Source: a virus. From it: DNA of 64,000 nucleotides. The notes beneath the pieces are model-generated. The model saw only the letters and a list, made by a program, of their open reading frames with translations, was not told where the DNA came from and made no database searches. The DNA is taken from positions 160,001 through 224,000 of the IMG/VR virus record IMGVR_UViG_3300045988_155520; one strand, given 5' to 3'. Shown here in pieces: positions 6,703-62,172 of the stretch. Numbering within the stretch: position 1 is the stretch's first letter; each line of letters opens with the position of its first letter. Made by a program: the position numbers and the translations under genes.

Positions 6703-8583
6703 TTATTTCATACCGCTAAATAACCACATATAAGTTCCGCCTATATGTTTATTCGGCTTTGATGATAAAGAATTACTATTCATCATAGGAAGACCAGATT
6801 TAGGTGTCACAGGTTGACTGTATCTTATAGCTGGTCTTCTATAGTTACTACCATTTGTCATTCTGTAAGAACTTAATATTGCTTCATCTTTACGTTTGGC
6901 AGCTTCTATTTTACTAAGAGAATACTGCATCACAAAGAGAGCCATTGCAAGACATGTAATTGTGTCATCATGTGCACCTTCCATGTGGTCCATACGTCCA
7001 GTTTCGCCTTTAAAAATCCATGTATCAAGTTCATTAATAACACGTGCAGAACGTATTTTAAATTCGTTGTTTCTAACAAGTCCTGCAAAGTTAGCAAGTA
7101 CAGGGTATCTATTTCCTTGGAAGTGAAAACCAGGCAATCTATTCATATAATTACCATCTGACATAGATTGATTTTGCATTGTGTATGTCTTCTGAGAAGA
7201 GTCATCATAATGTAGGTTAGTATAACCAAGGTTCAACATTGTTAAAATAGCAGCATCTCCTTGACCACCAGTACAATCTACTACAACATAAGCATTATTA
7301 TATTGCTTGGCATAATAAACCGCCATAGAACCAATATCGTCGCCTAACTTCTTTCCGACATATTCCATTACTTGTTCTATGATTGGTTGACCGTTTTCAT
7401 CACGTCCATCCATATCTATAACCTCTATAGCAGTTCTATCGGCAGACACACCTCGTGATGGGTCAATTCCTAATATATATCTATGACCAGGAATAGGTGC
7501 TTTCCAATACCAAGTATCATCAACCATTGGGTCTTTTAAATCTGGCAGTGGGTCTCTAACATTAATTCTATTCTGTAGTTCTACAAATTCACTTGCAACA
7601 ACGTTGTTAGCTGAACCAAGGAACGACACATCAAGCTCTTGGGCTATTTTCATAGAATCATTATTGAAAGATTGACACATTGTTTCATACCAAGGAGAAG
7701 TCGGCATCCATCCCTCTTGTTCCAATTTGCGCCATCTTTCTTCGTTATATTCTATTCTTCCTGTATCATCTAATATTTCCTCTACAATCCACTTTTTCTC
7801 TCCAGTTTCAGCATCTTTCTTATACCACTTCAAATGTCTGTTATAACGCAAATCTTGATACCATTTAAATTCAACTGCGTTATAGTTATTTTCATGGCTT
7901 AATGCTTGACGATAAGTATTGTAATATAATTCATCTTTACCATTAGGTGTTGAAACCATTATTATCTTTGATTTATCACCATAAGATGATGTGGCAGCAA
8001 CCGCTGAAGAATAAACGGCTGGACCATTCTCAATAAAGGCTGCCTCGTCAAAAATCAATATCGAAACAGCTGAGATACCACGTGCAGCATTTTCTCCAGA
8101 AGACCTTGCGTATACAGAACATCCATTGAATAATTGTAATTCTGATTTACTATTTTTGGTGAAAATATCTTTCTTATTTTTCTCTGATTTTGGGTCTGGA
8201 GAATAATATTCGTCACCCCAATACCATCGTGGAACTTGCATCAAAAACTCTCTAATTTTTGTAACCAATTGGTTTGCAAGGTCAAGTTTGTTACCAATAC
8301 ACAAAATAGTTTCTGGCTTATCAGAATCAGCAAGTGCAATTTGTGCACATATCCATGCCGAAGAAACTGTAGTAATACCTGCCTGACGGTGTTTAATGGC
8401 TATGGAAGCCTTATGGTCAGCAAGACTCTGTAAAAATGCTTTCTGTCTTGGGAATAATAGGAATTGTGATTTTTTACCAACATTAGCATTAAACGTTGAT
8501 AGGTATTTTTCTATAAAATAAATTCTCGATTTATCAGCATAACTTCTTGCGTATTCTTCAGCAATCGTTTGTATATCTATCAT
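6703..8583 (-). CDS. Terminase large subunit (T4 gp17-like)
   Basis: RQAGITT (Walker A-like), ILIFDEAAF (Walker B) and IIMVSTPNG (coupling motif) resemble gp17 RQLGKTT, IYIDECAF and TTTPNG as I recall them. 626 aa. Confidence 0.88.
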   Translation of the reverse strand: MIDIQTIAEEYARSYADKSRIYFIEKYLSTFNANVGKKSQFLLFPRQKAFLQSLADHKASIAIKHRQAGITTVSSAWICAQIALADSDKPETILCIGNKLDLANQLVTKIREFLMQVPRWYWGDEYYSPDPKSEKNKKDIFTKNSKSELQLFNGCSVYARSSGENAARGISAVSILIFDEAAFIENGPAVYSSAVAATSSYGDKSKIIMVSTPNGKDELYYNTYRQALSHENNYNAVEFKWYQDLRYNRHLKWYKKDAETGEKKWIVEEILDDTGRIEYNEERWRKLEQEGWMPTSPWYETMCQSFNNDSMKIAQELDVSFLGSANNVVASEFVELQNRINVRDPLPDLKDPMVDDTWYWKAPIPGHRYILGIDPSRGVSADRTAIEVIDMDGRDENGQPIIEQVMEYVGKKLGDDIGSMAVYYAKQYNNAYVVVDCTGGQGDAAILTMLNLGYTNLHYDDSSQKTYTMQNQSMSDGNYMNRLPGFHFQGNRYPVLANFAGLVRNNEFKIRSARVINELDTWIFKGETGRMDHMEGAHDDTITCLAMALFVMQYSLSKIEAAKRKDEAILSSYRMTNGSNYRRPAIRYSQPVTPKSGLPMMNSNSLSSKPNKHIGGTYMWLFSGMK

Positions 8584-18007: not shown

Positions 18008-20488
18008 ATGGACGAAATAAGATTAATGTATAGCAAAGAATTGGATGAAGTTGTATTATATATGGAAACATCTATTCTTAATGAAATACCCTCCAAAGAG
18101 TTAACACCAGAACACTTCGTTCTTGCAATGTTAGATACAAAAAACTGTCATGCACACATGATTCTTGAAAGTTATTTAATGAACAACAACATAGTAAGTT
18201 TAAGAGAGTTGTTTGCTAACGCATTAACGGCATGTAATAACGAGATAAGTGGACTAACAAATAATATAATTGAAATTCCTTTCAGTAAAGAAATGAATAA
18301 ATTAATGGAAGATGCTGAGAATGAAAAAGAAATTACGAAAAGTAAAATTTTAGGTACTGAACATTTCCTTTTAGCATTACTAAATCCAGAATTGAATTTA
18401 AATAGCGGAAAAATTCTTAAAAGTGCTGGTATTGATTATAACAATATTTTGAGTAAATGTCAAAGCGAAACAAAAAATAGACATACTAAAAAACCGAAGA
18501 CTAAAAATAATAACATGAATATTCCTTCAAAAAGTGAAATTAATATTAAATCAGTTTCACCAAAAGATAATTTTATAAAGCAATATACTATCAATTTAAA
18601 TCAAATTATAAAAGATGGTAAAGTTGATAAAACAATCGGACGAGAAAAAGAACTTAAAATTATCATGCAGGTACTTTCAAGACGTAGAAAGAATAATGTA
18701 GTACTTGTAGGTAAAGGAGGTGTCGGAAAGACTTCAATTGTTTACGGTCTTGCAAAGTTAATTAACGAACATAAAGTACCAAGTGTATTAGACGGCAAAG
18801 AATTACTTCTACTCAATATTATGAGTATGGTATCGGGAACGAGTTTAAGAGGTATGTTTGAAGAACGAGTTAAAGGACTATTTGACGAATTGGAAAACAA
18901 TGACAAATATATCCTTGTTATTGACGATATGCAGATGGTACTTAAGAATGGTAATAAAGATAGAGATACAGACATTTCTGATAAAATTGGTAAGATTTTG
19001 GAAGACGGTAATGTTAGAGTCATAGGTACATTACCTTTTAAGGAATATCGTAATTGTGTTGAAAATAATACACAACTATCTCGTAAATTACAGAAAATTG
19101 TTATTGAACCAAACAATGCTTCTGAAACAATACAAATTATAAAAGAAAATAAAAAGTTTTACGAGGATTATCATAACACAATTTATAGTGATGAAATAAT
19201 CAAAAAAGCGGTTGAACTTTCTGAAAAGTATATAAACGACAGATGTTTGCCTGATTCTGCAATAGATGTGATTGACCTTGCTGGTGCTGGATTATGTCTA
19301 ACCAAAACGGAACCAGAAATGATTACTTCTACAAGAAGCCGTCTGCATGAGATTGCAAATGAAAAAAAGAAGTACATGAATAATGGTGAATGGGAACTTG
19401 TTGAAGTCTTAAATAAAGAAGAGAAGGCACTTAATCGTAAATTAACTGATTATAAGAGAGAACAAAAGAAAGATAATAAACATATAGTACCTATTACTGA
19501 AAATGATATTGCAAAAGTAATATCAGATATAACTGGAGTACCAGTAACCAAATTGTCAAGTAATGAGAAAACTAAAATCGCTCATATTGATAATATATTA
19601 AAGGAAAGTATTATAGGTCAAGATGAAGCCGTAGAAGCAATCTGTAAGGTTATTAAAAGAAATAAAGTAGGGCTTGGTGATAAAACAAAGACAATGTCAA
19701 ATATTCTTATGATGGGCCCTTCAGGTTGTGGTAAAACGTTGATTGCTAAGAAGTTAGCAGAAGAAATATTCGGTGATGAAAAATCATTAATACGCATTGA
19801 TATGTCTGAATATTCTGAGAAAAATTCAATTTCAAAACTTACAGGTGCATCTCCTGGTTATGTAGGATATGAAAATGGTGGACAATTAACCGAGGCAATT
19901 AAAAATAAGCAACACTGTGTCTTACTTTTAGATGAAATTGAAAAAGCTGACCAAGAAGTTTATAATCTGTTTTTACAATTATTCGATGATGGTAGATTAA
20001 CAGACTCATCTGGGCAACTTGTTAATTTTAAGAACGTTATTGTTTTAATGACATCAAATATCGGTGCTAAGCAAGCATCTGAGTTTGGAAAAAGCATTGG
20101 CTTTTCTACAAATGTTGGTAATAATAAGAAAGCCATCATTGAAAAAGAAATGAAAAGTAAATTTACACCAGAATTTCTTAATAGAATTGACCAAATTGTT
20201 TACTTTAATAGTTTAACAGATGATAACCTCAAAGGTATTACTGAATTAGAAATAAAGAAGTTCTCCAATAGAGTTAAACAAGCTGGTTATAATATAACAT
20301 ATACACCAAAGGTTGTTGATTTCATCTATCAAAAAGCAGTAAAACAGAAAGAGTATGGCGCTCGCCCAATTATTCGATTTGTACAAAACGAACTTGAAGA
20401 TAAGTTGACAGATGTAATCTTACTTGGGGATTATGAAAATGAGCATACATTTAATTTTGATTTCGAAAACGAATTAATCATTTCGTAA
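18008..20488 (+). CDS. ClpA/ClpC-like two-ring AAA+ unfoldase
   Basis: Clp_N repeats (EHFVLAMLD, TEHFLLALLN). D1 has GKGGVGKTS and LVIDDMQ. D2 has GPSGCGKT, LLLDEIEKA and GARPIIR. The KSIGFS loop at 20096..20104 aligns with the ClpA KSIGLI ClpP-docking loop. Confidence 0.85.
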   Translation: MDEIRLMYSKELDEVVLYMETSILNEIPSKELTPEHFVLAMLDTKNCHAHMILESYLMNNNIVSLRELFANALTACNNEISGLTNNIIEIPFSKEMNKLMEDAENEKEITKSKILGTEHFLLALLNPELNLNSGKILKSAGIDYNNILSKCQSETKNRHTKKPKTKNNNMNIPSKSEINIKSVSPKDNFIKQYTINLNQIIKDGKVDKTIGREKELKIIMQVLSRRRKNNVVLVGKGGVGKTSIVYGLAKLINEHKVPSVLDGKELLLLNIMSMVSGTSLRGMFEERVKGLFDELENNDKYILVIDDMQMVLKNGNKDRDTDISDKIGKILEDGNVRVIGTLPFKEYRNCVENNTQLSRKLQKIVIEPNNASETIQIIKENKKFYEDYHNTIYSDEIIKKAVELSEKYINDRCLPDSAIDVIDLAGAGLCLTKTEPEMITSTRSRLHEIANEKKKYMNNGEWELVEVLNKEEKALNRKLTDYKREQKKDNKHIVPITENDIAKVISDITGVPVTKLSSNEKTKIAHIDNILKESIIGQDEAVEAICKVIKRNKVGLGDKTKTMSNILMMGPSGCGKTLIAKKLAEEIFGDEKSLIRIDMSEYSEKNSISKLTGASPGYVGYENGGQLTEAIKNKQHCVLLLDEIEKADQEVYNLFLQLFDDGRLTDSSGQLVNFKNVIVLMTSNIGAKQASEFGKSIGFSTNVGNNKKAIIEKEMKSKFTPEFLNRIDQIVYFNSLTDDNLKGITELEIKKFSNRVKQAGYNITYTPKVVDFIYQKAVKQKEYGARPIIRFVQNELEDKLTDVILLGDYENEHTFNFDFENELIIS

Positions 20489-20495
20489 AACAAAA

Positions 20496-20521
20496 TGAAC
20501 GGGGCAATCAAACCCCGTTCA
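20496..20521. terminator. Hairpin between convergent genes
   Basis: TGAACGGGG-N8-CCCCGTTCA. Confidence 0.6.
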
Positions 20522-20529
20522 TAAAAATC

Positions 20530-20655
20530 TTAATACTCACATCCTACAAGTGCCACAACTATAAAGAAGAATATAATCAGGCATGTCTGGATAAAGAAAT
20601 AAGTTTTACAATACTTTTTGAAAAAAGATGCTACTTTTGAAAATAATTTCTTCAT
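20530..20655 (-). CDS. Small membrane peptide (41 aa)
   Basis: Below the track cutoff. My translation: MKKLFSKVASFFKKYCKTYFFIQTCLIIFFFIVVALVGCEY. Confidence 0.4.
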   Translation of the reverse strand: MKKLFSKVASFFKKYCKTYFFIQTCLIIFFFIVVALVGCEY

Positions 20656-20665
20656 GATATTTAAG

Positions 20666-20680
20666 TTTTAATATAAATAT
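20666..20680 (-). promoter_or_regulatory. Copy of the conserved 15-mer (sense ATATTTATATTAAAA)
   Basis: Lies 10 nt upstream of ATG 20655. Confidence 0.4.
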
Positions 20681-20776
20681 TGTATTTCAGACAAATATAC
20701 TAAATTACTCACCAAAATTATTGATTAAATTTATGTTAAAATATTTAATTGATTTGGGCGTTAAAAATATTTTTCA

Positions 20777-20784
20777 TATCTTTG
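20777..20784 (+). promoter_or_regulatory. Bacteroidota-type -7 box
   Basis: TATCTTTG, about 52 nt upstream of ATG 20837. Confidence 0.55.
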
Positions 20785-20836
20785 CAACCGTGTTAAAAAT
20801 TAATAGAAAACAGTTTTATAAACTATTTATCTTTAT

Positions 20837-21220
20837 ATGCATGACACAAAAATGAAGTTAAAACAATATAATAAACAACTTAACGAAGAATTTAGAAAAG
20901 AAGTATTAAGAGAGAGTTACTCTGATAAAGTGTCAGTAATTCAAAGTTTCTTAGATAAAAATTTTATTCGTGCAAAATATACAGGAGAAGATGATAATGG
21001 CATCCTTGTTAATATACCAATAGTCATACAAATGGACGAAAATGGACAACCATCCAAAAAGTCATTAACTGACCAACAATTATTCTATCTCCTACAAAAT
21101 AAATTTAAAACGATACTACCAAAAGAACATGGTAGAGATAAATTTATTATACAAGTATTAAAAGATTGGTACAGTCAGAAGATTACCAAATATGGTACTC
21201 TAACTAAATACGGCTTTTAA
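20837..21220 (+). CDS. Hypothetical protein (127 aa)
   Basis: ORF track. Confidence 0.65.
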   Translation: MHDTKMKLKQYNKQLNEEFRKEVLRESYSDKVSVIQSFLDKNFIRAKYTGEDDNGILVNIPIVIQMDENGQPSKKSLTDQQLFYLLQNKFKTILPKEHGRDKFIIQVLKDWYSQKITKYGTLTKYGF

Positions 21221-21318
21221 TTAATAAGAGGTCAAAACAGCACAGAACGGAGTCTCACACAGTGCTAAATTGTAAAACATAACTTAGGTTTTGATTTACA
21301 CCTCACTTAAAAATAAAA

Positions 21319-21756
21319 ATGATGAGAAATTACAAAAAATTATTTCTAATGGTTCTTTTTGCGATTCTGTCCACAACTACAGTAAACGCACAAAGTTGTT
21401 CACATGGATTTGATTGGTCACGTCTGATTGCTGCAATGATTCACATTGAAAGCAAAGGTCAAAACAATGCAAGAAATGGAAAATCATTAGGGGTACTTCA
21501 AATTACGCCATCAGCCGTAGCTGAATGTAACAACATTCTGAAAAAGAAGAAAATTAAGAAACGTTACACTCTTGAAGATAGAAGAGACCCTCAGAAGTCT
21601 AAGGAAATCTTTATTCACCTTCAAGAACATTTTAACCCAGAACATAGCTTTGAAAAAGCTACAAAATGCTGGAATCATGGTTTTTATGTAAAGAATATCA
21701 AAAGTTTACCTAATACATATTACCATAAAGTTATGAAACAAATGTCAAAAATGTAA
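21319..21756 (+). CDS. Secreted lytic transglycosylase (SLT-like) domain protein; possible endolysin
   Basis: Signal-peptide-like N-terminus MMRNYKKLFLMVLFAILSTTTVNA, and the motif IHIESKG...SLGVLQITP (E-S ... G-L-M-Q type). Confidence 0.6.
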   Translation: MMRNYKKLFLMVLFAILSTTTVNAQSCSHGFDWSRLIAAMIHIESKGQNNARNGKSLGVLQITPSAVAECNNILKKKKIKKRYTLEDRRDPQKSKEIFIHLQEHFNPEHSFEKATKCWNHGFYVKNIKSLPNTYYHKVMKQMSKM

Positions 21757-21763
21757 ATAACAG

Positions 21764-21793
21764 AAAAGATGATAGTTTTTTCTATCATCTTTT
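21764..21793. terminator. Bidirectional hairpin terminator
   Basis: AAAAGATGATA-N8-TATCATCTTTT. Confidence 0.65.
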
Positions 21794-21799
21794 TTTATT

Positions 21800-22522
21800 T
21801 TAATAACCAACAATCTTATCACCAACATTCTCTTTCCAACCTGGAATATCAATATTTTTATATGTTTCAACAGCTGCCATTGGAACTTCTATTCTATCAA
21901 TTCTTTCAAAAGTATCCAACTCAAATTCTGGTGGAATCAGACTTTGGAAACGTACAGAACCATTTTTACCGTTGTCAAGTGAATAAAAATTATAACCTAT
22001 TTTTTTTACTGAATGAGGAATTACTATTTTTTCAATATTTGTACGACCAAAAGAATAATTACCTATTTCTAAAACACCTTCAGGTATAGTAATTTCTTTC
22101 AAAGATTTACAGTTATCAAGTAATGAATCTGAAATTGTTTTGATGTTTTTAGGTAGTATAATATTTGTTAGTAGGGTATCAGATGTAAAACATGAAACTC
22201 CAATGTCTTCTATCGTATCAGGTAATATAATTTCTTTAAAACCTGCATAGGAGAACATACCCATATATAATTTTCTTCCATTGAATTTAGAAAAATCTAC
22301 TTGTGTAATCTTCTGATTTTTTTCCACATCTCCCCAATTACCTATGAAGAACCCATCTTTCAATTCACCATTCATGTCTAAAGTATTCCATCCAGGATGT
22401 AAAAATAATAAATTAGGTGATGAAAAATCAATAATATCTAAATTTCCTTTTAAAATAGGTACATCATCACTCCCCTCAACAAACAATCTAATTATATTCT
22501 CAACGACACGGTTATACCTCAC
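21800..22522 (-). CDS. BspA-type leucine-rich-repeat protein, main body (240 aa), out of frame with its own N-terminal exon
   Basis: LRR_5-like repeats (IILPDTIEDIGVSCF, IILPKNIKTISDSLLDNCKSLKEITIPEGVLEIGNYSF). The track start is a GTG inside the G-tract region. Confidence 0.75.
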   Translation of the reverse strand: MRYNRVVENIIRLFVEGSDDVPILKGNLDIIDFSSPNLLFLHPGWNTLDMNGELKDGFFIGNWGDVEKNQKITQVDFSKFNGRKLYMGMFSYAGFKEIILPDTIEDIGVSCFTSDTLLTNIILPKNIKTISDSLLDNCKSLKEITIPEGVLEIGNYSFGRTNIEKIVIPHSVKKIGYNFYSLDNGKNGSVRFQSLIPPEFELDTFERIDRIEVPMAAVETYKNIDIPGWKENVGDKIVGY

Positions 22523-22629
22523 ACCCCCCCCCCTTGAGCATCAGTACCTACAAATGGTTCCAAATATTCAGTTCCATCTACATAGGTCTGCAATTCATTT
22601 GCATTACCAAATAATTTTAAATGTTTCAT
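22519..22629 (-). CDS. N-terminal fragment (36 codons) of the same LRR gene
   Basis: My translation: MKHLKLFGNANELQTYVDGTEYLEPFVGTDAQGGGV*. Colinear with the N-terminus of paralog 34017..34727. Confidence 0.6.
   Translation of the reverse strand: MKHLKLFGNANELQTYVDGTEYLEPFVGTDAQGGGV
22524..22533 (-). repeat. G10 (C10 on the plus strand) homopolymer inside the LRR gene
   Basis: Counted directly. One extra G would fuse the two ORFs. Confidence 0.95.
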
Positions 22630-22636
22630 ATACTAC

Positions 22637-22653
22637 TTTTTAATTATAAATAT
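22637..22653 (-). promoter_or_regulatory. Copy of the conserved motif (sense ATATTTATAATTAAAAA)
   Basis: Lies 7 nt upstream of ATG 22629. Confidence 0.4.
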
Positions 22654-22702
22654 TTAACACATTTTTATAATATAATAATTTGTAATTACCATAATTTATT
22701 TG

Positions 22703-22710
22703 TATCTTTG
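22703..22710 (+). promoter_or_regulatory. Bacteroidota-type -7 box
   Basis: TATCTTTG, 22 nt upstream of ATG 22733. Confidence 0.6.
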
Positions 22711-22732
22711 CAAAAATAATAATATAAAGGTT

Positions 22733-23605
22733 ATGGAAGAAGAAAAACAAATTGGTTATCTCGTAGCACCTAATTTTAAGTAATATAAGACTGAATATAA
22801 AGAAGGTAAAGAACATAATTGTTTAGACAGCAATTTTTACAGATATGGTTATGCAGTTTATCGTAATTTGTTCGATTTGATAGCTGTAACAGATATTTCC
22901 ATTCATACATATTTCATGGTAGAATGCAGTGAAATAGATAAAGTACATAGCGACCCATTACATATAACTTGTAAGCACATTAAAGTTATAAAAGAAATTG
23001 CTATTGAAGATATCGCAGAAGACACTTCTGAATACCAAAAAGAATATGTTGAGAAGTTGGTAATAACATCTGATAAAGTAGCTCACGGTCAGATAACAAA
23101 TTCTGTAGATAGATGTATAATGACTATGCATAATGAATTAGGTTCGGTAAATAATAGTGGTTTATTTTGTGTGGTTAACCTTGATGGTTCAAGGTGTACT
23201 TGTAATCTTACCCGTAATAACAATATAGTTACTTCTAATGGTAAATCAAATAAAATTATTGCATCTGATACAGGTAATACATTCATTGTACGTGAAGAAG
23301 ATAATACTTTATCCATAACTGGTGGGTTTAATAATATTATTTCAACTGGTAAAAATAATAATATCTCATGTATTAGTGATACAAATAGAATAATATGTAA
23401 CGGAGAAAATAATATTGTTTATCTGCATGGAAATAATAATAAAATAAAAGCTACAGTAGGAACAACTATCATATATTCCGAACGTAATAACGAAAATGAG
23501 AAAGAACCTGCGACAGTAAAAACAATCTATGTTGATGGAGCTAATGTTAAACCAGATACGTGGTATATCATTGAAAATGGAGAAATCAAAGAATGTGATA
23601 AATGA
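22733..23605 (+). pseudogene. Paralog of 29425..30294, interrupted by an in-frame TAA at 22781..22783
   Basis: MEEEKQIGYLVAPNFK*YKTEYKEGKEHN... aligns with MVEKQTAYLVGSKDKDSSFYYEVGKEYKG... across the stop. The track ORF 22868..23605 is the downstream part. Confidence 0.55.
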
Positions 23606-23721
23606 ACAGATTCAAAAACTTGTTGTACAGCAACAATGTCAATACTTAAGAAATAAAATTGAAACTGAATTAGAACGTAAGAAAATTTTCAAAAAGTTAT
23701 AAACATTAAAAAATAAAAGTT

Positions 23722-24024
23722 ATGAATGAAAAATTATTGTCAGCAGAAGAACTAAAAGAAAAAGTAGTTAACGAAGTATCAAATCTAAAAAACGGAATTT
23801 ATAATTATTGTGAAAATATAATATCAAATTTAGAAAAAGAACTTATATTAGGAAAGTGTTGTGTTAAAATCAAATATAATCAAGATAAGATAAATTTTGT
23901 TAAACTAACATATATTATCCGTAAACTTAGAGAATTGGGTTATACAGTAGATTACTGTCAAGATAGTGAAAGAACAAGTGTAGATGAAGATACATATTTT
24001 TATGTTTTAACTGTAAGAGTATAA
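23722..24024 (+). CDS. Hypothetical protein (100 aa)
   Basis: ORF track. Confidence 0.6.
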   Translation: MNEKLLSAEELKEKVVNEVSNLKNGIYNYCENIISNLEKELILGKCCVKIKYNQDKINFVKLTYIIRKLRELGYTVDYCQDSERTSVDEDTYFYVLTVRV

Positions 24025-24026
24025 AA

Positions 24027-25346
24027 ATGGAAACATTTGAAAATATTAGAAAAGAGAGTAGATTATTATTTGAATACGTTAGAGGTAGTCATCTTTATGG
24101 ATTGAATAATGAAGACTCAGATTTAGATACTGGTGGATTGTTTATCTGTAATCCATCAGATTTAACAGGACTTGGACTTAATTATTCTCCACAGGTTGCA
24201 GATAGTAGAAATGACACAACGTGGTATGAATTAGGCAAGTATTTTCAAATGCTTCTTAAATCAAATGCAACTGTGCTTGAAACTCTGTTTATACCAGAGG
24301 ATAAAATGATTTTAAAGCCATCCCCTGTTCTTGATGAGTTATTTGCAAATAAAGATAAATTCATTACCAAGCAGTGTTTTAAACCTTTCGTTGCTTATTC
24401 TTTAGAACAAATTAGAAAAGCACGTGGACTTAATAAGAAGATTGTTAATCCAGTTACCAAGCGTTTAAAGCCAATGGATTTCTGTTATACATTCAAAGAC
24501 CAAGGTAGTACTAAAATGGAATATTGGCTGGAATATAGAGGTATGAAACAGGAATATTGTGGTCTTGTTAAAATACCTAATATGGAGGGTATCTATGGCG
24601 TTTATTACGACTGGGGACAACACTTTCAAAGGGAAGGAGTTGAAGACAAAAATTTCGAGGGTTGTTATATACGTCTATTTAACACAAAAGATATTATTAC
24701 ACGTTTAAAGGAAGCACAAGCTAATAATAATCAAGCAGGTATAGAAATAGAAACCCGTCTTCTTAAACGCTCTTATATGCAAAATATGGCTCAGTTTATC
24801 ATGAACTATACCAATATTGACGATTGGGATGATTTCCTGTGGTGGTTTCGTGTAAATCAAACACCTAAAGGATATAAAGGCATTGTGCGAGAAAATTCAA
24901 ATGAAATGGTCCTATCACCAGTAGCTAAGGGAGAGAAACCAATATGCTACATGTCTTTCAATTCTAACGGATATTCAGCTCATTGTGCAGACTATAAACA
25001 TTATAAAGATTGGGAAGAAAAGCGTAACGAGAAGAGATATCAATCCAATCTTACAAAGAACTATGATTCTAAAAATATGATGCATAGTTTCCGTTTAATT
25101 CAAATGGGTCTTGAAATTGCAAGTGGAGAAGGGGTAAATCTTGACAGAAATAAGATTGGAGATAGAGATTTGCTTATGAATATTAGAAATCATAAATATG
25201 AGTATGATGAACTTATGGATATGATTGATAAAAAGAAAGCAGAAATGGACAAAGCAATGAAAAATTCTACTCTTCCAGAAACTATAGATGTACAAATGGT
25301 CGAAGATATTCTGCAAAATATCAGAAAGAAACAAATGATTGTATAG
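24027..25346 (+). CDS. Pol-beta-type nucleotidyltransferase of the RlaP-like (PF10127-like) kind
   Basis: The N-terminal LFEYVRGSHLYGLNNEDSDLDTGGLF matches the GSxxYG...DSDxD signature as I recall it. Confidence 0.55.
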   Translation: METFENIRKESRLLFEYVRGSHLYGLNNEDSDLDTGGLFICNPSDLTGLGLNYSPQVADSRNDTTWYELGKYFQMLLKSNATVLETLFIPEDKMILKPSPVLDELFANKDKFITKQCFKPFVAYSLEQIRKARGLNKKIVNPVTKRLKPMDFCYTFKDQGSTKMEYWLEYRGMKQEYCGLVKIPNMEGIYGVYYDWGQHFQREGVEDKNFEGCYIRLFNTKDIITRLKEAQANNNQAGIEIETRLLKRSYMQNMAQFIMNYTNIDDWDDFLWWFRVNQTPKGYKGIVRENSNEMVLSPVAKGEKPICYMSFNSNGYSAHCADYKHYKDWEEKRNEKRYQSNLTKNYDSKNMMHSFRLIQMGLEIASGEGVNLDRNKIGDRDLLMNIRNHKYEYDELMDMIDKKKAEMDKAMKNSTLPETIDVQMVEDILQNIRKKQMIV

Positions 25347-25801: not shown

Positions 25802-27619
25802 ATGAGAAGAAAGAAAAAAGAAGAAATTAAAGTATATAAGCCAAGCAAATATCAATTAGCTATATATGACTTTGTTGAACACGGTCTCGGTAATGCGGTT
25901 ATTTCAGCATCTGCAGGGTCTGGCAAAACATATACTATTATTAAATCTTTAGACTATATACCAGAAGATAAAAAAGTTCTTATTGTTGCTTTTAATAGAG
26001 ATATACGTCAAGAAATAAAAAAGAAAGTAGCACTTGCAGGTCATAAAAACGTTCAAGTTGAAACATTTCATAGCTTAGGATATAAGATATTAAATGCTAA
26101 TTTTAATAGACGCTTTATGAATACTGAACCAAATGAGTATAAGTATTCATCGTATATTAATAATAATATATCCAAACTTGCAACAATAAATACATTCCGT
26201 CTCGGTAAACAATTCTCTCAATATCTATCTAACATTCAAAGTCTTGTAAACTTTGGTAGATGTTACCTTTCAGAAACTGTGGAAGATTTAGAAAAAGTTT
26301 GTAGTAGATATGGTATTGTATGTGTAGGTGATGAGAAAGAAGTAGCTGTTAAAGTGTTAGAATGGGGCAAAACATATCTGGATGAAATTGATTATGGCGA
26401 TATGGTTTGGTTGCCTAATATTCTTCACCTTGATAGTAAGTTTTATAAGTATGATTGGATAATCGTAGATGAATGTCAAGACCTAAATATGGTAGAAAAA
26501 GACATGTTGTTTACTTGTCGAAGGATGGGCACACGAATGATGTTCTTTGGTGACAAAGCGCAAGCTATTTATTCTTTCTCTGGTGCAGATTCTGAAGCGT
26601 TCGACAAACTAAAAGAGTTGGAAGATACTATTCAGTTACCCCTTTCTATTAGTTATCGCTGTCCTAAGAATATTGTTGAGTATGTACACTATCTTGTACC
26701 AACCATGGAGTATGATAAAAAGAATAAAGTAAAAGGTGAAATCATACAAAATGCAAATCTATCAGATGTTAAAGACGGTGATATGATTTTATGCCGTAAC
26801 AATGCCCCTCTTGCACAAGTTTATATTGAACTATTAAAGAATGGTATAAAGGCTAAAATACTTGGTAAAGATTATTCTAACAACTTATCAAAAACGATAA
26901 GAAATACAAAAGAACAAATATTGAATGTAAATCTTGATAAACAAGGCGTTTTCTCAAAATTATATGATGTATTCTATGATTTCCTTGAAACAACAATGCG
27001 TAAGCAGAATATATCAAAGGAGGAAGCGTTAACAAGTGCATCTATCGTATCAAAACTTGACGAAATTAAAGTATTGGAGATTCTATCAGATGGCTTAACG
27101 ACCGCTAAGGAATTACAAGACCGTATCAAAGATATTTTTACTAATAATAAAGATAGCGGTATTATACTGTCAACAATTCACAAATCAAAAGGATTAGAGT
27201 CTCCAAATGTATATATAGCTTGCAAATCTCTCATGCCGTCTAAGACAGCAAAACAACCATGGGAGATAGAACAAGAAAATAATCTTATTTACGTTGCATA
27301 TACACGTACTAAGAACATATTGGGTTTTCTTGATGAAAGTGAGTTCAAACAGTTTGATGCATATAACCCAGAAACTATTCGTTCTCTTAAATCAAAACAG
27401 ATTGTTATTGATAAGTTATATAATAAGAAGAGAAACGAAGTGACAACAATAGACCAAGCAAGACATATTATAGAAACTGCAACAACAATTAGTGAAACAG
27501 CAGATACTAAAAATGAATTTGTTATAGAGTCTAAAAATAAACCTAAAAATGCTATTGAAGCATTTGGAAATTTAATGAAAAGTAAAAAAACAAGAATAAT
27601 AAGGAGAATTAAAAAATGA
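25802..27619 (+). CDS. UvrD/PcrA-like SF1 DNA helicase
   Basis: Motifs ASAGSGKTYT (Walker A), IIVDECQDLN, QAIYSFSGAD, SYRCPKNIV, TIHKSKGLE and VAYTRTKN. Confidence 0.85.
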   Translation: MRRKKKEEIKVYKPSKYQLAIYDFVEHGLGNAVISASAGSGKTYTIIKSLDYIPEDKKVLIVAFNRDIRQEIKKKVALAGHKNVQVETFHSLGYKILNANFNRRFMNTEPNEYKYSSYINNNISKLATINTFRLGKQFSQYLSNIQSLVNFGRCYLSETVEDLEKVCSRYGIVCVGDEKEVAVKVLEWGKTYLDEIDYGDMVWLPNILHLDSKFYKYDWIIVDECQDLNMVEKDMLFTCRRMGTRMMFFGDKAQAIYSFSGADSEAFDKLKELEDTIQLPLSISYRCPKNIVEYVHYLVPTMEYDKKNKVKGEIIQNANLSDVKDGDMILCRNNAPLAQVYIELLKNGIKAKILGKDYSNNLSKTIRNTKEQILNVNLDKQGVFSKLYDVFYDFLETTMRKQNISKEEALTSASIVSKLDEIKVLEILSDGLTTAKELQDRIKDIFTNNKDSGIILSTIHKSKGLESPNVYIACKSLMPSKTAKQPWEIEQENNLIYVAYTRTKNILGFLDESEFKQFDAYNPETIRSLKSKQIVIDKLYNKKRNEVTTIDQARHIIETATTISETADTKNEFVIESKNKPKNAIEAFGNLMKSKKTRIIRRIKK

Positions 27620-32381: not shown

Positions 32382-33616
32382 ATGGAAACAATAGCTGAAT
32401 TATTAATAAAAATATCAACCATAAAAAATGAATTAAAAGAAACCATTAATTGTTTGGGTGGATTTGCTGATAATGATTTTACAAAATATAAGGAATATTT
32501 AATTAAATTTTATATTGAGGGAGGAGGGGCTAATGGAAATTATATTGAAAAGTTAGAAATACCATCTTATGTAACTAATATTAGTAATTATAGGTTTAAG
32601 TTGTCAAAATTTAAAGAAGTGGTAGTACCCAGTAGTGTTCAAGTTATTAATGATGGGGCGTTTTGTTATAACTCAAATCTTAAAAAAGTTACATTGAATG
32701 AAGGTGTTATGAGTATTGGGAGTGAGGTATTTAGTCAATGTACGAATTTGGAGGAAATTAATCTCCCTGATAGTTTAAGTTATATGAACAATAAATGTTT
32801 TGATAATTGTCAAAAATTGAAATCAATAACTTTACCAAGTAATTTACAAGGTCTTGGACAGAGTTGCTTTAATCAATGTAAATCATTAACAGAGGTTACT
32901 TTTCCTAAGAAAATTAAAAATACAGGAAGTTACAGTTTTGGATGGTGTAGTGGATTAACTACAGTAACAATTCCAAAAACAGTAGGAAGTATTAGTAATA
33001 GTACATTTACAAACTGCACATCTCTAAAAAAAGTTATATTTGTTGAGGGGGAAAAAGAACAAAATCCATTCTTTCCACCATTTATGATGCGAGGTGGAAT
33101 AATTGAAGATAGCGCTTTTGAAAATTGTAAATCGTTAACTGAAATTACAATACCTGATGATTTTGAGAACTTGAGTAGAAGAGTTTTTTATAATGCAGTA
33201 ATTTAACAGGTGTGACACTTTCAAATAAAGTGATAAATATTGGTGATGAGGCATTTGGGAATTGTTTAAAACTAACGGAAGTAACGATTCCTGATAGTGT
33301 AAAATATATTGGTAAATTTTGTTTTTTTGGTTGCACTTCATTAACGGCACTTACAATACCGAGTGGTGTAATCGAAATAAATACAAGGATGTTTGGAAAC
33401 TGCACATCGTTAACAACACTTAATTTGTCTAAAAATATTAAGTCTATACATGATGGTATATTCTTTGGTTGTACACAGCCAATAAGAATTAATTATAATG
33501 GTACACGTAACGAATGGATAAGTATAAAAAGAGAAGAAACAGATATACCAAGTGGTAGTAAATTAGTATGTACTGATGGTGAATATACGCTTGACAGAAC
33601 ATTAACACCGTCATAA
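32382..33616 (+). pseudogene. BspA-type LRR protein split by a 1-nt frame offset near 33194..33203 (track ORFs 32382..33206 and 33212..33616)
   Basis: The repeat register continues across the break: ...RRVFYN / CSNLTGVTLSNKVINIGDEAFGNC in the -1 frame. Confidence 0.65.
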
Positions 33617-34016: not shown

Positions 34017-34727
34017 ATGAAAAACGTTAAATTATTTACAACAAAACAACTAAGAAGTGATTATGAAGACTCAAGTAACTACACAGAACCATACGTAAGT
34101 CTGGAAGAAGAGGGTAATGAAGTAAAATATAATAATATATCAATTATTAGAATTACAGTAAAAGATGGAGGAAATGCTACATTACAAGGAGGTATTACTC
34201 TTAAACCTGGAGAACATGTTATAAATATGAAACAGAATTATTCGTTACCACTTGGAATTACTAATGGAAAGGAGTACATTGAAGAAGTAGATTTATTTGA
34301 TTATAATGAGACATCTGTAGGACGTTCACTTTTTGAAGGTTTTACTAACTTAAGAAAAGTTTACCTATCTAATAAAATAACTGCTATAGAAGATTGGGCT
34401 TTCAACCGTTGTACTAACTTGGAAGAAGTTATAAATACTGAAAATATTTCCAGCATAGGACTTAACAGCTTCTCTGATTGTAGTAGTTTAGAAAAAATCA
34501 CATTCTCAGATAAAATTAACACTATTTCTCCTTATTCTTTTAAGAATAGTACCAGTTTAAAAAATATAATATTCAATTCGGATACTCCAAAAGATACATT
34601 TCTAAATATATTACAACAAATACCTACTATTCAAAGTATCTATGTTCCACAAGATGCGGTACGAACATATAAGACAGCTTCTGGATGGTCAAGTTATACT
34701 TCTATGATTAAACCAATAGAGCAATAG
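34017..34727 (+). CDS. BspA-type LRR protein (236 aa), intact
   Basis: Repeats such as FEGFTNLRKVYLSNKITAIEDWAFNRCTNLEEV. Confidence 0.75.
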   Translation: MKNVKLFTTKQLRSDYEDSSNYTEPYVSLEEEGNEVKYNNISIIRITVKDGGNATLQGGITLKPGEHVINMKQNYSLPLGITNGKEYIEEVDLFDYNETSVGRSLFEGFTNLRKVYLSNKITAIEDWAFNRCTNLEEVINTENISSIGLNSFSDCSSLEKITFSDKINTISPYSFKNSTSLKNIIFNSDTPKDTFLNILQQIPTIQSIYVPQDAVRTYKTASGWSSYTSMIKPIEQ

Positions 34728-37753: not shown

Positions 37754-38527
37754 ATGGTATTTCAAATTGATAACAAGGATTTTGATTCTTCAATTTTTAC
37801 AAGATTCTCTAGTAATTCTAAATTTGTAAGATTATGTAATGAACTATACAATAGAATTGAGTGGGACTTAATGTTTACAAATGACAATGATGATAAAGAA
37901 TTTACATTTGAATACAAGCAAAACATTGTTGAATTTATTGATACAATAACACTTAGGGTTGTTATTATTCAAAACCGTATGTATAAACGTTTGCCTATTA
38001 TTCAATTTGATAATGATGAGGTAGTTAGTGGTACTAATCAGTTGAGTAATCCAACCGTCACTTTATTTTTGAATAGTATTGATAAAAAGGAATTTGTAGA
38101 GAATTTTGGTATGACAATAGATTTTCTAAATATTCTATGGAATACGATATACAAAAAGTACCACAATATTCAATGGGGTGAAATTCAATCTTTTGACCCA
38201 TTATCATGTGATATGACAATTCTTATTGAAATTTATAAATTATTTCCTCATTGGTCCCATGCAGGTATTACAATGCTTCATTTCACTGACCATGAAATGC
38301 TATTTCAAAAGATAATGAAAACTCAAGATGAAGTCTATTTCTTACAAAGATGGTTTTATACTATTGATGTTATTAATAAGGACGATAATGATTTTAAAAA
38401 TCATTTCACAAAAGCATTCAATGTAGATATTTCTGAATTTGAAAAATTAAGACAAAGGTTAATATTCATGTATTTGCTTTACTTGAGATATTACTCATTT
38501 ATTTCTAAAATGTTTTATAAAAAATAA
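37754..38527 (+). CDS. Hypothetical protein (257 aa), paralog A
   Basis: ORF track. Similar to 38558..39352 along the whole length (e.g. FTRFSSNSKFVRLCNELY / FTSFSHDSKIVELCNELY). Confidence 0.7.
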   Translation: MVFQIDNKDFDSSIFTRFSSNSKFVRLCNELYNRIEWDLMFTNDNDDKEFTFEYKQNIVEFIDTITLRVVIIQNRMYKRLPIIQFDNDEVVSGTNQLSNPTVTLFLNSIDKKEFVENFGMTIDFLNILWNTIYKKYHNIQWGEIQSFDPLSCDMTILIEIYKLFPHWSHAGITMLHFTDHEMLFQKIMKTQDEVYFLQRWFYTIDVINKDDNDFKNHFTKAFNVDISEFEKLRQRLIFMYLLYLRYYSFISKMFYKK

Positions 38528-38557
38528 ATTGCATGTCAAACTAAAATAAAAACGAAT

Positions 38558-39352
38558 ATGAACGTACAAAGTTATAATAATAATTTTAATCTTTCAGAAT
38601 TTACAAGTTTCTCTCATGATTCTAAGATTGTGGAATTATGTAATGAATTATATGAAGAGGCAAAAAAGAATGTATATAAATGTAGTGAACATCTATCAGT
38701 AACATCGGTAAATAAATATACACCTATTGTAGATATTGAAATTTGTAATAGTTTATCAATGAGTATATCTATTTCACCAGATAACAATGTTAATATACCA
38801 TATTATATATTTAGTGATATGTTTCAGATGGTTAGTGATACTAACCAGTTCAATAATCTTACTATAGTTTTATATCTTACTAATTTTGAGAAAGAAAATT
38901 TTATAGAGTGTGCTGGACAAAGTATAGACCAAATTCTAAGAATTTATAATACAATCAATAAGAAAATAGATTATGATAAGTGGAATGATATAACTTCCAT
39001 TGATTCAACGAAAGAAAATATAACATATCTTTCAAGACAAATACTTAGCTTTTTGGAAGAAAATGCACGTATCGTTTATTGTATTAATAATCGTCCTGAA
39101 ACTTTAAACTCACAAGAACTGGACAAGATAAAAGAATATATAGATTTATTTAAGTGTTGGTTGTATACAATAGATGTCACGAAAAAAGATGATAAAGAAT
39201 TTGAAAAGTTATTTACTGAAACATTTTTTTCCTCTTATAATAGTAAACTCTCTGATTTTAATAACTTAAGAAATACTTTAATATTTGCATTATTCGAAAG
39301 TTTAAAACTTTACTCTATACTTCTAAAATATTTTAACAATGGAACAATATAA
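38558..39352 (+). CDS. Hypothetical protein (264 aa), paralog B
   Basis: ORF track. Overlaps the methyltransferase gene by 14 nt. Confidence 0.7.
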   Translation: MNVQSYNNNFNLSEFTSFSHDSKIVELCNELYEEAKKNVYKCSEHLSVTSVNKYTPIVDIEICNSLSMSISISPDNNVNIPYYIFSDMFQMVSDTNQFNNLTIVLYLTNFEKENFIECAGQSIDQILRIYNTINKKIDYDKWNDITSIDSTKENITYLSRQILSFLEENARIVYCINNRPETLNSQELDKIKEYIDLFKCWLYTIDVTKKDDKEFEKLFTETFFSSYNSKLSDFNNLRNTLIFALFESLKLYSILLKYFNNGTI

Positions 39353-40675: not shown

Positions 40676-41374
40676 ATGAATAAAGAAATAAAAAACATAG
40701 ATGGTATACTTTATCAAGTAATAGACACTAAACTCTATTATAAAGGGACTTTATATATAATAAATCAATCAATAGATAAATTACCTGATAATTTAGTTGT
40801 AGATGGAGACCTTATTATTCATAATTGTTGTTTTTTAAAAAGAATACCTCATAAATTGAATGTTAATGGCTCATTGTATATCAATGAATGTAATATAAAA
40901 TCATTACCATGTAGTCTGAAAGTGAAAAATAATATAACACTTATCGGCTGTAGACAATTTACAACACTACCAAATAATTTAAATATTAATGGTCATCTTA
41001 CAATTGTAAATTCACCGATATTATCAATACCAGATAATATACATGTAGGACAGTCAATCACATTACGTTCAACCTCTATACAAAAACTCCCAAACAACTT
41101 AACAGTTAAAAGAGAACTTACTCTTAGTCATTGTTATGATTTAACTGTTTTACCAGAAAATTTAAAAGTAGAATATAATCTTATTCTGGATAGTTGCATT
41201 AACTTGAATACAATTTCAAAAAATACAATAGTCGGAAGTTATATGACTTTGAAAGATTGTTTTAAACTTACAGAACTACCAGAAGATTTAAAAGTAGGAA
41301 ATTTTATATTCTTAAAAACCTCATACTTAAATAATATACCAAATCACTTAAAAGAAAAGGTGATGGTTTCATAA
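40676..41374 (+). CDS. LPxNL(T/I)V-type leucine-rich-repeat protein (232 aa), paralog 1
   Basis: Repeats of about 22-23 aa such as LPNNLNINGHLTIVNSPILSIPDNIHVGQSITL. Confidence 0.72.
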   Translation: MNKEIKNIDGILYQVIDTKLYYKGTLYIINQSIDKLPDNLVVDGDLIIHNCCFLKRIPHKLNVNGSLYINECNIKSLPCSLKVKNNITLIGCRQFTTLPNNLNINGHLTIVNSPILSIPDNIHVGQSITLRSTSIQKLPNNLTVKRELTLSHCYDLTVLPENLKVEYNLILDSCINLNTISKNTIVGSYMTLKDCFKLTELPEDLKVGNFIFLKTSYLNNIPNHLKEKVMVS

Positions 41375-41392
41375 ATTAAATGTTACGACAGA

Positions 41393-48182: not shown

Positions 48183-48295
48183 ATCTATATTTTACTTTTT
48201 ATTATGTATTTATTTGCTTTAAAAGTTGATTTAATCTTATATAATTATCATACACAATCTATTTGTACTTAATTAAGTATAGATGTAATAATAAT

Positions 48296-62119: not shown

Positions 62120-62164
62120 AATTCTATTTGTTTTAATTGTTTGTTTACTATTGAAATACGATTG

Positions 62165-62172
62165 CAAAATTA
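62165..62172 (-). promoter_or_regulatory. -7 box
   Basis: Sense TAATTTTG, about 46 nt upstream of ATG 62119. Confidence 0.5.

What the first reader, a model, noticed from the sequence alone, without database searches (positions are those of the whole stretch)
22519..22629. G10 homopolymer splits a BspA-type LRR gene: candidate phase-variable tract
- C10 at 22524..22533 (G10 on the coding strand) stands out in this very AT-rich DNA.
- The ORF from ATG 22629 (MKHLKLFGNANELQTYVDGTEYLEPFVGTDAQGGGV*) stops immediately after the tract.
- The 240-aa LRR ORF (21800..22522) is open in the next frame back to 22540.
- G11 or G8 would give one protein ...TDAQGGGGVRYNRVVENIIRLF... This is colinear with the intact paralog 34017..34727 (MKNVKLFTTKQLRSDYEDSSNYTEPYVSLEEEGNEVKYNNISIIRITV).
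- This looks like slipped-strand ON/OFF switching of a putative host-interaction protein, or a homopolymer miscall.
Basis: partly seen in the sequence, partly recalled or inferred. Interest (0 to 1): 0.75.

Follow-up and report, generated by a model that had tools for sequence, protein, structure and literature searches.

The report
Phase-variable poly-G switch in phage LRR gene
A run of ten G's near the start of a leucine-rich-repeat gene in an uncultured ~312-kb phage from the human mouth varies in length between closely related phage genomes, so the gene is intact in some and cut short in others; this looks like the slippage-driven on/off switch already described in Campylobacter and T-even phages.

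Summary
C10 at 22524..22533 (G10 on the coding minus strand) is the only G/C run longer than 7 in the window. It splits a 275-aa BspA-type LRR gene (21800..22629, minus strand) into a 36-codon N-terminal ORF and a 240-codon LRR ORF.

Related genomes support a hypermutable contingency tract:
- The run sits at the same codon position in orthologues from about 50 loci fetched from other metagenome assemblies, and in a second paralogue family only 26-28% identical.
- It is always built from the rare Gly codon GGG.
- Its length ranges over G7-G13, with at least G17 at one contig end.
- G10 or G7 gives an intact gene. Other lengths truncate it after 35-44 codons.
- Strains with identical LRR proteins carry different OFF lengths.
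- Every OFF allele not cut by a contig end is otherwise undamaged, and the N-terminal segment is under purifying selection (pN/pS about 0.25).

The window's copy is OFF by +2. Its nearest ON relative (99.7% identical) differs by an extra TG just after the run, not by G count. An otherwise identical strain has G9.

Switching within one population, and the protein's role, could not be tested. Poly-G switches in phages are already published, so this is a new member of a known kind.

The parts
22524..22533 (-). Poly-G tract (G10 on the coding strand, C10 on the plus strand). It covers codons 33-36 of the gene and encodes the Gly run of a flexible linker.
   Evidence: It is the only G/C run longer than 7 in the window. 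The homologous run is G7-G13 in relatives.
22520..22523 (-). TGTG immediately 3' of the run. The nearest ON relative has a single TG here, so this extra dinucleotide is what puts the window's G10 allele out of frame (+2).
   Evidence: Alignment A2. The same TGTG allele with G9 occurs in L024. The same allele occurs in ERZ989715 and ERZ773050.
22519..22629 (-). N-terminal ORF, 36 codons plus stop: a conserved module, MKHLKLFGNANELQTYVDGTEYLEPFVGTDAQ, followed by the Gly run.
   Evidence: It is identical to P0096. pN/pS is 0.25 across 11 alleles.
21800..22522 (-). LRR ORF, 240 codons from GTG. This is the BspA-type LRR solenoid plus a conserved C-terminal helix pair, in the +2 frame relative to the N-terminal ORF.
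   Evidence: It is identical to P0097. The fold model matches 4fd0, 4fs7 and TpLRR.
21800..22629 (-). The whole gene: about 275 aa when the tract is in frame, here in the OFF state.
   Evidence: The full-length 275-aa orthologue P0098 differs by 3 residues and is found on 9 contigs.
21762..21795 (.). Bidirectional terminator-like hairpin just after the gene's stop codon, shared with the convergent gene at 21319..21756.
   Evidence: This is a consensus scan only.
34017..34727 (+). Tract-free paralogue with the same N-terminal and C-terminal architecture. At the tract position it has CTG GAA GAA GAG GGT AAT.

Best explanation
The G10 run is a hypermutable homopolymer, that is, a contingency locus. 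It sits 96 nt into a phage gene for a ~275-aa BspA-type leucine-rich-repeat protein.

Proposed mechanism: during phage DNA replication, slipped-strand mispairing adds or removes G's. One length class in three keeps the conserved 32-residue N-terminal module joined to the LRR solenoid through a 2-4-glycine flexible linker (ON). The other two classes end translation after 35-44 codons (OFF).

The window's copy is OFF (+2). At least two LRR paralogue families in this phage lineage carry the same switch, so a phage population would be a mix of particles or infections with different LRR repertoires (bet-hedging).

Shown here:
- The tract and its frame effect.
- Length polymorphism between close relatives.
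- Conservation of the tract.
- Integrity of the OFF alleles.

Inferred, not shown:
- That the changes arise by replication slippage at high rate and are reversible within a population.
- That the LRR protein mediates binding to a host or environmental ligand.
For: 1. Polymorphism at near-identity.
- L021 (99.66% nt identity to the window over 2 kb) is G10-TGAGG, ON.
- The window, L022, L053 and L054 are G10-TGTGAGG, OFF.
- L024 is identical to the window over 1.9 kb except that it has G9.
- L025 and L001 are G11.

2. Strains with the same downstream protein carry several OFF lengths.
- P0112: G9 x3, G11 x2, G12 x2.
- P0124: G11 x3, G12 x2.
- P0016: G8 x2, G11 x2.

3. In loci found through the N-terminal peptide, which is present whether the gene is ON or OFF, orthologues are 7 ON and 8 OFF. 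The second paralogue family is 5 ON and 3 OFF.

4. One 90%-identity protein cluster holds full-length 275-aa members as well as 240-, 245-, 246- and 228-aa truncated members.

5. The run is at the homologous codon position in two paralogue families that are only 26-28% identical.

6. GGG makes up only 5.3% of Gly codons in the window, yet the tract is always pure G.

7. All OFF alleles not cut by a contig end keep the downstream frame open for 215-278 codons. pN/pS of the N-terminal 32 codons is 0.25, and 0.26 among alleles seen only as OFF.

8. In-frame length variants exist: G7 gives NGGV in L014, and GGGG occurs in P0011. The AlphaFold model puts residues 24-41 in a low-confidence linker with pLDDT below 50, so the glycine count should be tolerated.

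9. Published precedent:
- Sorensen et al. 2021, Cell Rep 35:109214, on Campylobacter phage polyG tracts (cited in PMC10877375).
- Gomez, Barrick and Waters 2025 on T2/T4 contingency loci (PMC12633550).
Against: - No reads were available, so heterogeneity within one population and reversibility are not shown.
- Homopolymers are error-prone in sequencing and assembly. L022 and L023 differ only in the base after G10, and one contig (L010) ends inside a run of at least G17.
- The window's frameshift relative to its nearest ON relative is a TG dinucleotide, not a change in G count. No ON allele in the TGTG context (G8 or G11) was found.
- OFF alleles are in the majority in the cluster contig counts. 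That would also fit a gene that is dispensable.
- The protein's function is unknown (PHROGs 'unknown function').
Confidence: 0.72

Rival explanations
1. Sequencing or assembly artefact. The real phage genome has an in-frame tract, and the apparent frameshifts in the window and in many relatives are homopolymer miscalls.
For: - L022 and L023 are identical over 1923 bp except for the base right after G10, T versus C. That is what poor base calling after a long G run would produce.
- Contig L010 breaks inside a run of at least G17.
- Many OFF alleles differ from ON by only +1 (G11 versus G10).
Against: - The window's exact allele recurs in at least three assemblies made with different assemblers: the window's contig, ERZ989715 k127_90752, and ERZ773050 NODE_14.
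- Lengths differ by up to 4 nt (G8, G9, G11, G12) between strains with identical LRR proteins. That is more than the consensus error expected for short-read assemblies.
- The G9 and G10 versions of the TGTG allele, and the G10 ON allele on 9 contigs, are each reproducible.
- An artefact would not explain why a pure G run is conserved against codon bias in two paralogue families.
Confidence: 0.12
2. Leaky decoding. OFF genotypes still yield some full-length protein through ribosomal frameshifting or RNA-polymerase slippage on the G run. The tract would then tune the dose of the protein rather than switch it fully off. This reading complements DNA-level variation and is not exclusive of it.
For: - A G run lets tRNA-Gly re-pair perfectly in any frame.
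- GGG is a rare codon here, 5.3% of Gly codons, which could cause ribosome pausing.
- This would explain why OFF-majority alleles stay intact.
Against: - No stimulatory RNA structure lies 3' of the tract (z = +0.66).
- Different alleles would need shifts in opposite directions: +1 for G11, -1 for G9, G12 and the window. That argues against a programmed event.
- There are no expression data.
Confidence: 0.1
3. Decaying pseudogene. The gene is dispensable, and the homopolymer is simply where it broke first.
For: - OFF alleles outnumber ON in the cluster contig counts.
- Another LRR paralogue in the window (32382..33206 plus 33212..33616) is split by a frameshift that is not at a repeat, and the split is reproduced on 5 contigs.
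Against: - None of the 30 or so uncut OFF alleles examined has a second lesion: the downstream frame is open for 215-278 codons.
- The untranslated-when-OFF parts evolve under purifying selection (pN/pS 0.25-0.26).
- ON and OFF alternate among near-identical strains.
- The tract itself is conserved across 26-28%-identical paralogues.
Confidence: 0.05

Closest known systems
Hypermutable polyG tracts in Campylobacter (Fletchervirus) phages (Sorensen et al. 2021, Cell Rep 35:109214; cited in PMC10877375)
   Same: - An intragenic poly-G run in a phage gene.
- Changes in run length shift the reading frame and create ON and OFF subpopulations.
- Several genes per genome carry such tracts.
   Different: - That paper was not read here. 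From its title and my own recollection, it describes cultured ~130-kb Campylobacter myoviruses whose tracts sit in receptor-binding-protein genes.
- This phage is an uncultured ~312-kb human oral phage with an unknown host.
- Here the tract sits in small BspA-type LRR paralogues with no shown virion role.
- Switching has not been measured here.
Contingency loci in T2/T4 and other phages (Gomez, Barrick and Waters 2025, bioRxiv, PMC12633550)
   Same: - Simple-sequence repeats in phage coding regions give reversible frameshifts through polymerase slippage.
- The proposed benefit is bet-hedging.
   Different: - The T-even cases are mostly A/T runs of 6 or more bases scattered over all gene classes. 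In the abstract and Introduction read here they are documented within single cultured phage populations, not across relatives.
- Here a single long G run stands out in an AT-rich genome. It is conserved in position across orthologues and paralogues, which argues for selection on the tract itself.
Phase-variable BspA-like surface proteins of Candidatus Mycoplasma girerdii (PMC5476646)
   Same: - A multi-copy BspA-type LRR family.
- Individual copies are switched by length changes in a simple repeat.
- The majority genotype is often OFF in a metagenomic population.
- The habitat is the human oral cavity.
   Different: - That case is bacterial, not phage.
- Its repeats are mostly CA dinucleotides.
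- Its proteins are described as surface proteins. The phage proteins show no obvious N-terminal signal peptide (by eye; no predictor was run).
Classical bacterial poly-G/C contingency genes in Campylobacter, Neisseria, Haemophilus and Helicobacter (established knowledge; reviewed for Campylobacter in PMC8355987, listed but not read)
   Same: - A G/C homopolymer of about 8-13 bases near the 5' end of an ORF.
- ON/OFF switching by slipped-strand mispairing.
- The tract is conserved despite an AT-rich genome.
   Different: - The replicon here is a virus that probably replicates with its own machinery.
- The rate and repair context are unknown.

Membership tests
BspA-type leucine-rich repeat proteins (Pfam PF13306, LRR_5) | Sequence match to the LRR_5 profile above the gathering threshold. 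| tested here: met
   The fused protein scores 78 bits against a cut-off of 27.7, E = 7.8e-22. All homologues carry PF13306.
BspA-type leucine-rich repeat proteins (Pfam PF13306, LRR_5) | An LRR solenoid fold like TpLRR and the Bacteroides cell-surface LRR structures. | tested here: met
   The AlphaFold model of orthologue P0002 has pLDDT 86. Foldseek matches are 4fd0 (E = 9e-8), 4fdw, 4fs7, 6mlx (TpLRR) and 4cp6 (PcpA).
BspA-type leucine-rich repeat proteins (Pfam PF13306, LRR_5) | Cell-surface or secreted location and an adhesin function. | not testable with these tools
   No N-terminal signal peptide is apparent by eye in MKHLKLFGNANELQ..., but no predictor was run. PHROGs gives 'unknown function'.
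Simple-sequence-repeat contingency locus (phase variation by slipped-strand mispairing) | A homopolymer or short repeat inside the ORF or promoter whose length sets the reading frame. | tested here: met
   G10 lies at codons 33-36. In the window's context G8 and G11 are in frame and G9 and G10 are out of frame.
Simple-sequence-repeat contingency locus (phase variation by slipped-strand mispairing) | Tract length is polymorphic among closely related genomes while the flanks stay the same, with both ON and OFF states. | tested here: met
   G8-G12 occur with identical downstream proteins. ON and OFF both occur at 99.7-100% flank identity.
Simple-sequence-repeat contingency locus (phase variation by slipped-strand mispairing) | The tract is maintained by selection, that is, conserved against codon and base composition. 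| tested here: met
   The run is pure G in two paralogue families of 26-28% identity. GGG is 5.3% of Gly codons.
Simple-sequence-repeat contingency locus (phase variation by slipped-strand mispairing) | OFF alleles are otherwise intact, that is, reversible rather than decaying. | tested here: met
   The downstream frame is open for 215-278 codons in all OFF alleles not cut by a contig end. pN/pS is 0.25-0.26.
Simple-sequence-repeat contingency locus (phase variation by slipped-strand mispairing) | High-frequency, reversible switching within a clonal population. | not testable with these tools
   This needs read-level tract-length counts or plaque-lineage experiments. Only consensus assemblies were available.
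Programmed ribosomal frameshift site | A slippery sequence plus a 3' stimulatory structure, with one fixed shift direction conserved among relatives. | tested here: not met
   The run is slippery, but the 94 nt downstream fold no better than shuffles (z = +0.66). Relatives would need +1 in some alleles and -1 in others.
Pseudogene | Accumulation of several disabling mutations and relaxed constraint. | tested here: not met
   The only lesion is at the tract. pN/pS is about 0.25.

The most novel reading that the evidence does not exclude
A lineage of uncultured ~300-kb phages of the human mouth keeps a conserved poly-G switch at the same linker position in at least two diverged families of small BspA-type LRR proteins. 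Each genome therefore carries a combinatorial, phase-variable LRR repertoire. This would be a phage counterpart of bacterial contingency-gene sets. The conserved N-terminal module could serve as a common docking peptide, and the LRR as the variable binding surface.

Examples of independent states on one contig:
- IMGVR_UViG_3300008575_000009 has family A ON (G10, L005) and family B OFF (G9, L018).
- IMGVR_UViG_3300045988_152231 has both ON (L008 and L017).
Probability: 0.45. Interest if true: 0.7.

Novelty: new member of a known kind. Interest (0 to 1): 0.55.

Why it matters
If the switching is real, this shows that homopolymer contingency loci occur in an abundant but uncultured group of very large human oral phages, not only in a few cultured phages. 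Here they act on a multi-copy family of binding-type (LRR) proteins.

- It gives a concrete locus, already sampled many times, where read-level tract counts in existing oral metagenomes could measure phage phase variation in nature.
- It warns annotators that the frequent 'split' or 'truncated' LRR genes in these phages (228-246-aa calls plus 35-44-aa stubs) are switch states rather than separate genes.
- It marks the LRR family as a candidate for host or environment recognition in phages whose host is unknown.

Tried and rejected
- Megablast of 20500..24500 against INPHARED phages found no match. A tblastn of the fused protein found only distant LRR hits of 38% identity or less. No cultured relative is available.
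- An exact flank pattern with a variable gap found no hits in IMG/VR, because the flanks vary. I replaced it with protein-guided locus searches.
- The scan of GTDB genomes found only one distant Bacteroidota LRR, so it gave no prophage copy or host clue.
- Programmed frameshifting was considered. There is no 3' structure and the shift direction is inconsistent among alleles, so I did not adopt it as the main mechanism.
- I considered that the window's allele is really G12 with a miscalled 11th base, suggested by T versus C in L022 and L023. I judged this less likely than a real TGTG allele. The same allele recurs in at least three assemblies, and it also occurs with G9 (L024), where the odd base would have to move with the end of the run. 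It is not excluded.
- A whole-window Rfam scan found nothing. ARAGORN found no tRNAs.
- PHROGs gave no function for the LRR protein or its neighbours.
- The G+C-rich non-coding island at 45100..45310 folds no better than shuffles on either strand.

Full report
**1. The observation**

On the minus strand the sequence reads ...GGT ACT GAT GCT CAA GGGGGGGGGG TGTGAGGTATAACCGT....
- The run is ten G's at 22533..22524, which is C10 on the plus strand.
- It is the only G or C run longer than 7 in the 64-kb window, which is 29.8% G+C.
- A first-order Markov model of the window expects about 1.3e-3 such runs.
- The ORF from ATG 22629 encodes MKHLKLFGNANELQTYVDGTEYLEPFVGTDAQGGGV and stops at TGA 22521..22519.
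- The +2 frame is open from 22540 and encodes 240 residues from GTG 22522 down to 21800.
- The joined protein is a BspA-type LRR protein (Pfam LRR_5, E = 7.8e-22).
- It aligns from residue 1, across the junction, with the intact paralogue at 34017..34727.

**2. The setting**

The window is phage DNA.
- It encodes a portal protein (3993..6650), a large terminase (6703..8583), a ClpB-like AAA+ protein (18008..20488), a helicase (25802..27619) and an RlaP-type nucleotidyltransferase.
- The terminase is only about 25% identical to terminases of T4-like phages, and no cultured relative exists in INPHARED.
- The two ORFs are exactly P0096 and P0097, recorded on a 312,238-bp contig.
- Relatives sit on contigs of 200-330 kb.
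- Several records are labelled as human oral metagenomes or HMP samples.

This is therefore an uncultured jumbo phage of the human mouth, with an unknown host. The gene stands alone. A bidirectional terminator-like hairpin (21762..21795) follows its stop codon.

**3. Related genomes**

This is the decisive evidence. A protein search found about 50 close homologues.
- Full-length ones (270-280 aa) share the N-terminus MKHLKLFGNANELQTYVDGTEYLEPFVGTD(S/A)QGGG(G)V(K/R)YNRV.
- Many others are truncated calls of 227-247 aa that begin just after the tract.
- Within single 90%-identity clusters, full-length and truncated members coexist.

I fetched DNA for 53 related loci (L001-L050 and L052-L054). 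I tabulated the tract in every copy that has one.

| Gene family | State | Tract lengths and loci |
|---|---|---|
| Orthologues, context CAA-Gn-T | ON | G10: L002/L032, L004/L005/L026, L008/L028, L021 |
| Orthologues | OFF | G8 (2 loci); G9 (4, one of them L024 in the TGTG context); G10 + TG or CG (the window, L022 and L023; L053 and L054 carry the same 36-aa stub, and L054 is the same contig as L022); G11 (15); G12 (4); G13 (1); G7 in L031 (context CAA-A-G7) |
| Orthologues | unresolved | G17 or more, where contig L010 ends |
| Second paralogue family, 26-28% identical, context AAT-Gn-TAAG | ON | G10 (4 loci), G7 (1) |
| Second paralogue family | OFF | G11 (2), G9 (1) |

Further points:
- Strains whose downstream LRR protein is identical carry different OFF lengths. 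P0112 has G9, G11 and G12. P0124 has G11 and G12. P0016 has G8 and G11.
- Loci retrieved through the N-terminal peptide are not biased by switch state. They split 7 ON to 8 OFF for the orthologues and 5 ON to 3 OFF for the second family.
- Other paralogues have no tract at this position. Examples are CAA AAA AGT GTG (QKSVV) in the upstream tandem copy of many relatives, and CTG GAA GAA GAG GGT AAT in the window's 34017..34727. All fetched copies of these that are not cut by a contig end are intact.

**4. Is the tract selected, and are OFF alleles alive?**

- GGG is the rarest glycine codon in the window: 46 of 862, or 5.3%.
- Three consecutive GGG codons would be expected with probability about 1.5e-4 given three glycines (my arithmetic). 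Yet the run is pure G wherever it exists, in two families that have diverged to 26-28% identity.
- Every OFF allele not cut by a contig end keeps the downstream frame open to the normal stop, 215-278 codons.
- The 32 N-terminal codons evolve with pN/pS = 0.25. The value is 0.26 among alleles seen only in the OFF state.
- In-frame variants with 2, 3 or 4 glycines exist (L014; P0011).
- An AlphaFold model of orthologue P0002 (mean pLDDT 86) places residues 24-41, including the glycines, in a low-confidence linker ahead of a confident LRR solenoid. The solenoid matches Bacteroides cell-surface LRR proteins, TpLRR and PcpA.

The tract therefore sits where changes in length are harmless when in frame. 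This is typical of contingency loci.

**5. The window's own allele**

- Its nearest ON relative is L021, encoding P0098, at 99.66% nucleotide identity. P0098 is found on 9 contigs. L021 reads CAA-G10-TGAGG.
- The window reads CAA-G10-TGTGAGG. The window is thus OFF by +2 because of an extra TG next to the run, not because of its G count.
- The same TGTG allele recurs in ERZ989715 (run ERR589708, a 250,705-bp contig) and in ERZ773050 (a 131,309-bp contig).
- L024 is identical to the window over 1.9 kb but has G9. The run therefore also varies within this allele class.
- L023 equals L022 over 1923 bp except that it has C instead of T right after G10.

That last difference is either a real SNP or a sign that base calls just after the run are unreliable. 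I cannot decide between these without reads.

**6. Mechanism and rivals**

The best-supported reading is a slippage-driven ON/OFF switch (confidence 0.72).

*Shown:* the frame effect, the polymorphism among close relatives, the conservation of the tract, and the integrity of OFF alleles.

*Inferred:* a high, reversible switching rate within a population, and a binding role for the LRR protein.

Rivals:
- **Artefact (0.12).** Supported by the L022/L023 difference and by the contig break in L010. Weakened by reproducible alleles across assemblers and by length differences of 2-4 nt.
- **Leaky decoding by ribosomal or transcriptional slippage (0.10, complementary).** The run is a perfect slippery site made of a rare codon. 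But there is no 3' structure (z = +0.66), and the direction needed differs among alleles.
- **Pseudogene (0.05).** Contradicted by the absence of any second lesion and by purifying selection.

**7. Comparison with what is known**

- Poly-G contingency tracts in phage genes were described for Campylobacter phages (Sorensen et al. 2021, Cell Rep 35:109214, cited in PMC10877375).
- Repeat-driven contingency loci were described for T2, T4 and others (PMC12633550).
- Repeat-switched BspA-like families are known in an oral mycoplasma (PMC5476646).

This case works like these and meets every sequence-level criterion of a contingency locus that I could test. The population-level criterion could not be tested.

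What is new:
- the carrier, an uncultured oral jumbo phage lineage;
- the target, a small LRR paralogue family with a conserved docking-like N-terminus;
- the depth of conservation of the tract position across paralogues.

I found no paper describing this. I rate it a new member of a known kind, with interest 0.55.

Noticed in passing
window 32382..33206 and 33212..33616 (+): A second LRR_5 gene is split into 274-aa and 134-aa ORFs. Inserting one T after AAT at about 33194 (AATGC to AATTGC) gives a continuous 411-aa BspA-type protein: ...RRVFYNCSNLTGVTLSNKVINIGDEAF... The break is not at a repeat. The same split is recorded on 5 contigs, including ERZ989715, so it is a real fixed frameshift or a real two-ORF arrangement rather than a random error.
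   Followed up: partly
window 45100..45310: A G+C-rich non-coding island in AT-rich DNA. It contains three copies of a TTTTTTGGAAAATTTT-like motif, C7 at 45287, and A10 just upstream at 45065. It has no Rfam family and folds no better than shuffles on either strand. It may be a regulatory or origin-like region.
   Followed up: partly
L010 2352..2468 (IMGVR_UViG_2236661024_000003): The contig ends inside the homologous poly-G run, with at least 17 G's. The tract can therefore get long enough to break assemblies, or it attracts assembly artefacts.
   Followed up: no
L002, L003, L005, L008, L009, L030, L036, L037 and others: the copy about 850 nt upstream of the poly-G gene: In many relatives the poly-G LRR gene lies directly downstream of a tandem 274-aa paralogue with no tract (QKSVVKYNRV). 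In the window's lineage that neighbour is absent. P0019 looks like a recombinant, with the N-terminal half of the tract-free paralogue and the C-terminal half of a poly-G orthologue (P0005-like). This suggests cassette exchange between paralogues through their conserved ends.
   Followed up: no
L042 and L046, positions 1..355: In two relatives a 545-aa gene hitting Cas12f1-like_TNB (TnpB-type) lies next to the LRR locus. The window has ORF 22868..23605 at that position, and other relatives have a 290-aa gene. A mobile element has inserted beside the switch gene in some genomes.
   Followed up: no
window 37754..39352, 40676..44648, 47871..48604, and 51789..52502 / 61385..62167: Several other paralogue sets have similar N-termini:
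- the two ORFs at 37754..38527 and 38558..39352;
- the three ORFs at 40676..41374, 41393..43456 and 43449..44648, of which the 687-aa one hits a PHROG annotated tRNA-His guanylyltransferase;
- the pair at 47871..48182 and 48296..48604;
- the pair at 51789..52502 and 61385..62167.
The genome is rich in multi-copy families, as jumbo phages often are.
   Followed up: no
window 22519..22522 (- strand): In the window's allele, the GTG that opens the LRR frame overlaps the TGA that closes the N-terminal ORF (GTGA). This is the classic arrangement for termination-reinitiation coupling. Other OFF alleles lack it (for example G12-TAAAG), so it is probably coincidental. It could still allow a 240-aa product lacking the N-terminal module from this particular allele.
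   Followed up: no
window 21319..21756 (+): The convergent neighbour is a small SLT-domain (lytic transglycosylase) protein with a signal-peptide-like N-terminus, MMRNYKKLFLMVLFAILSTTTVNAQSC. Genes in this region lack obvious Shine-Dalgarno sequences; for example, AAAAAGTAGTAT precedes the ATG at 22629. Both features hint at a Bacteroidota-type host, but this was not tested.
   Followed up: no
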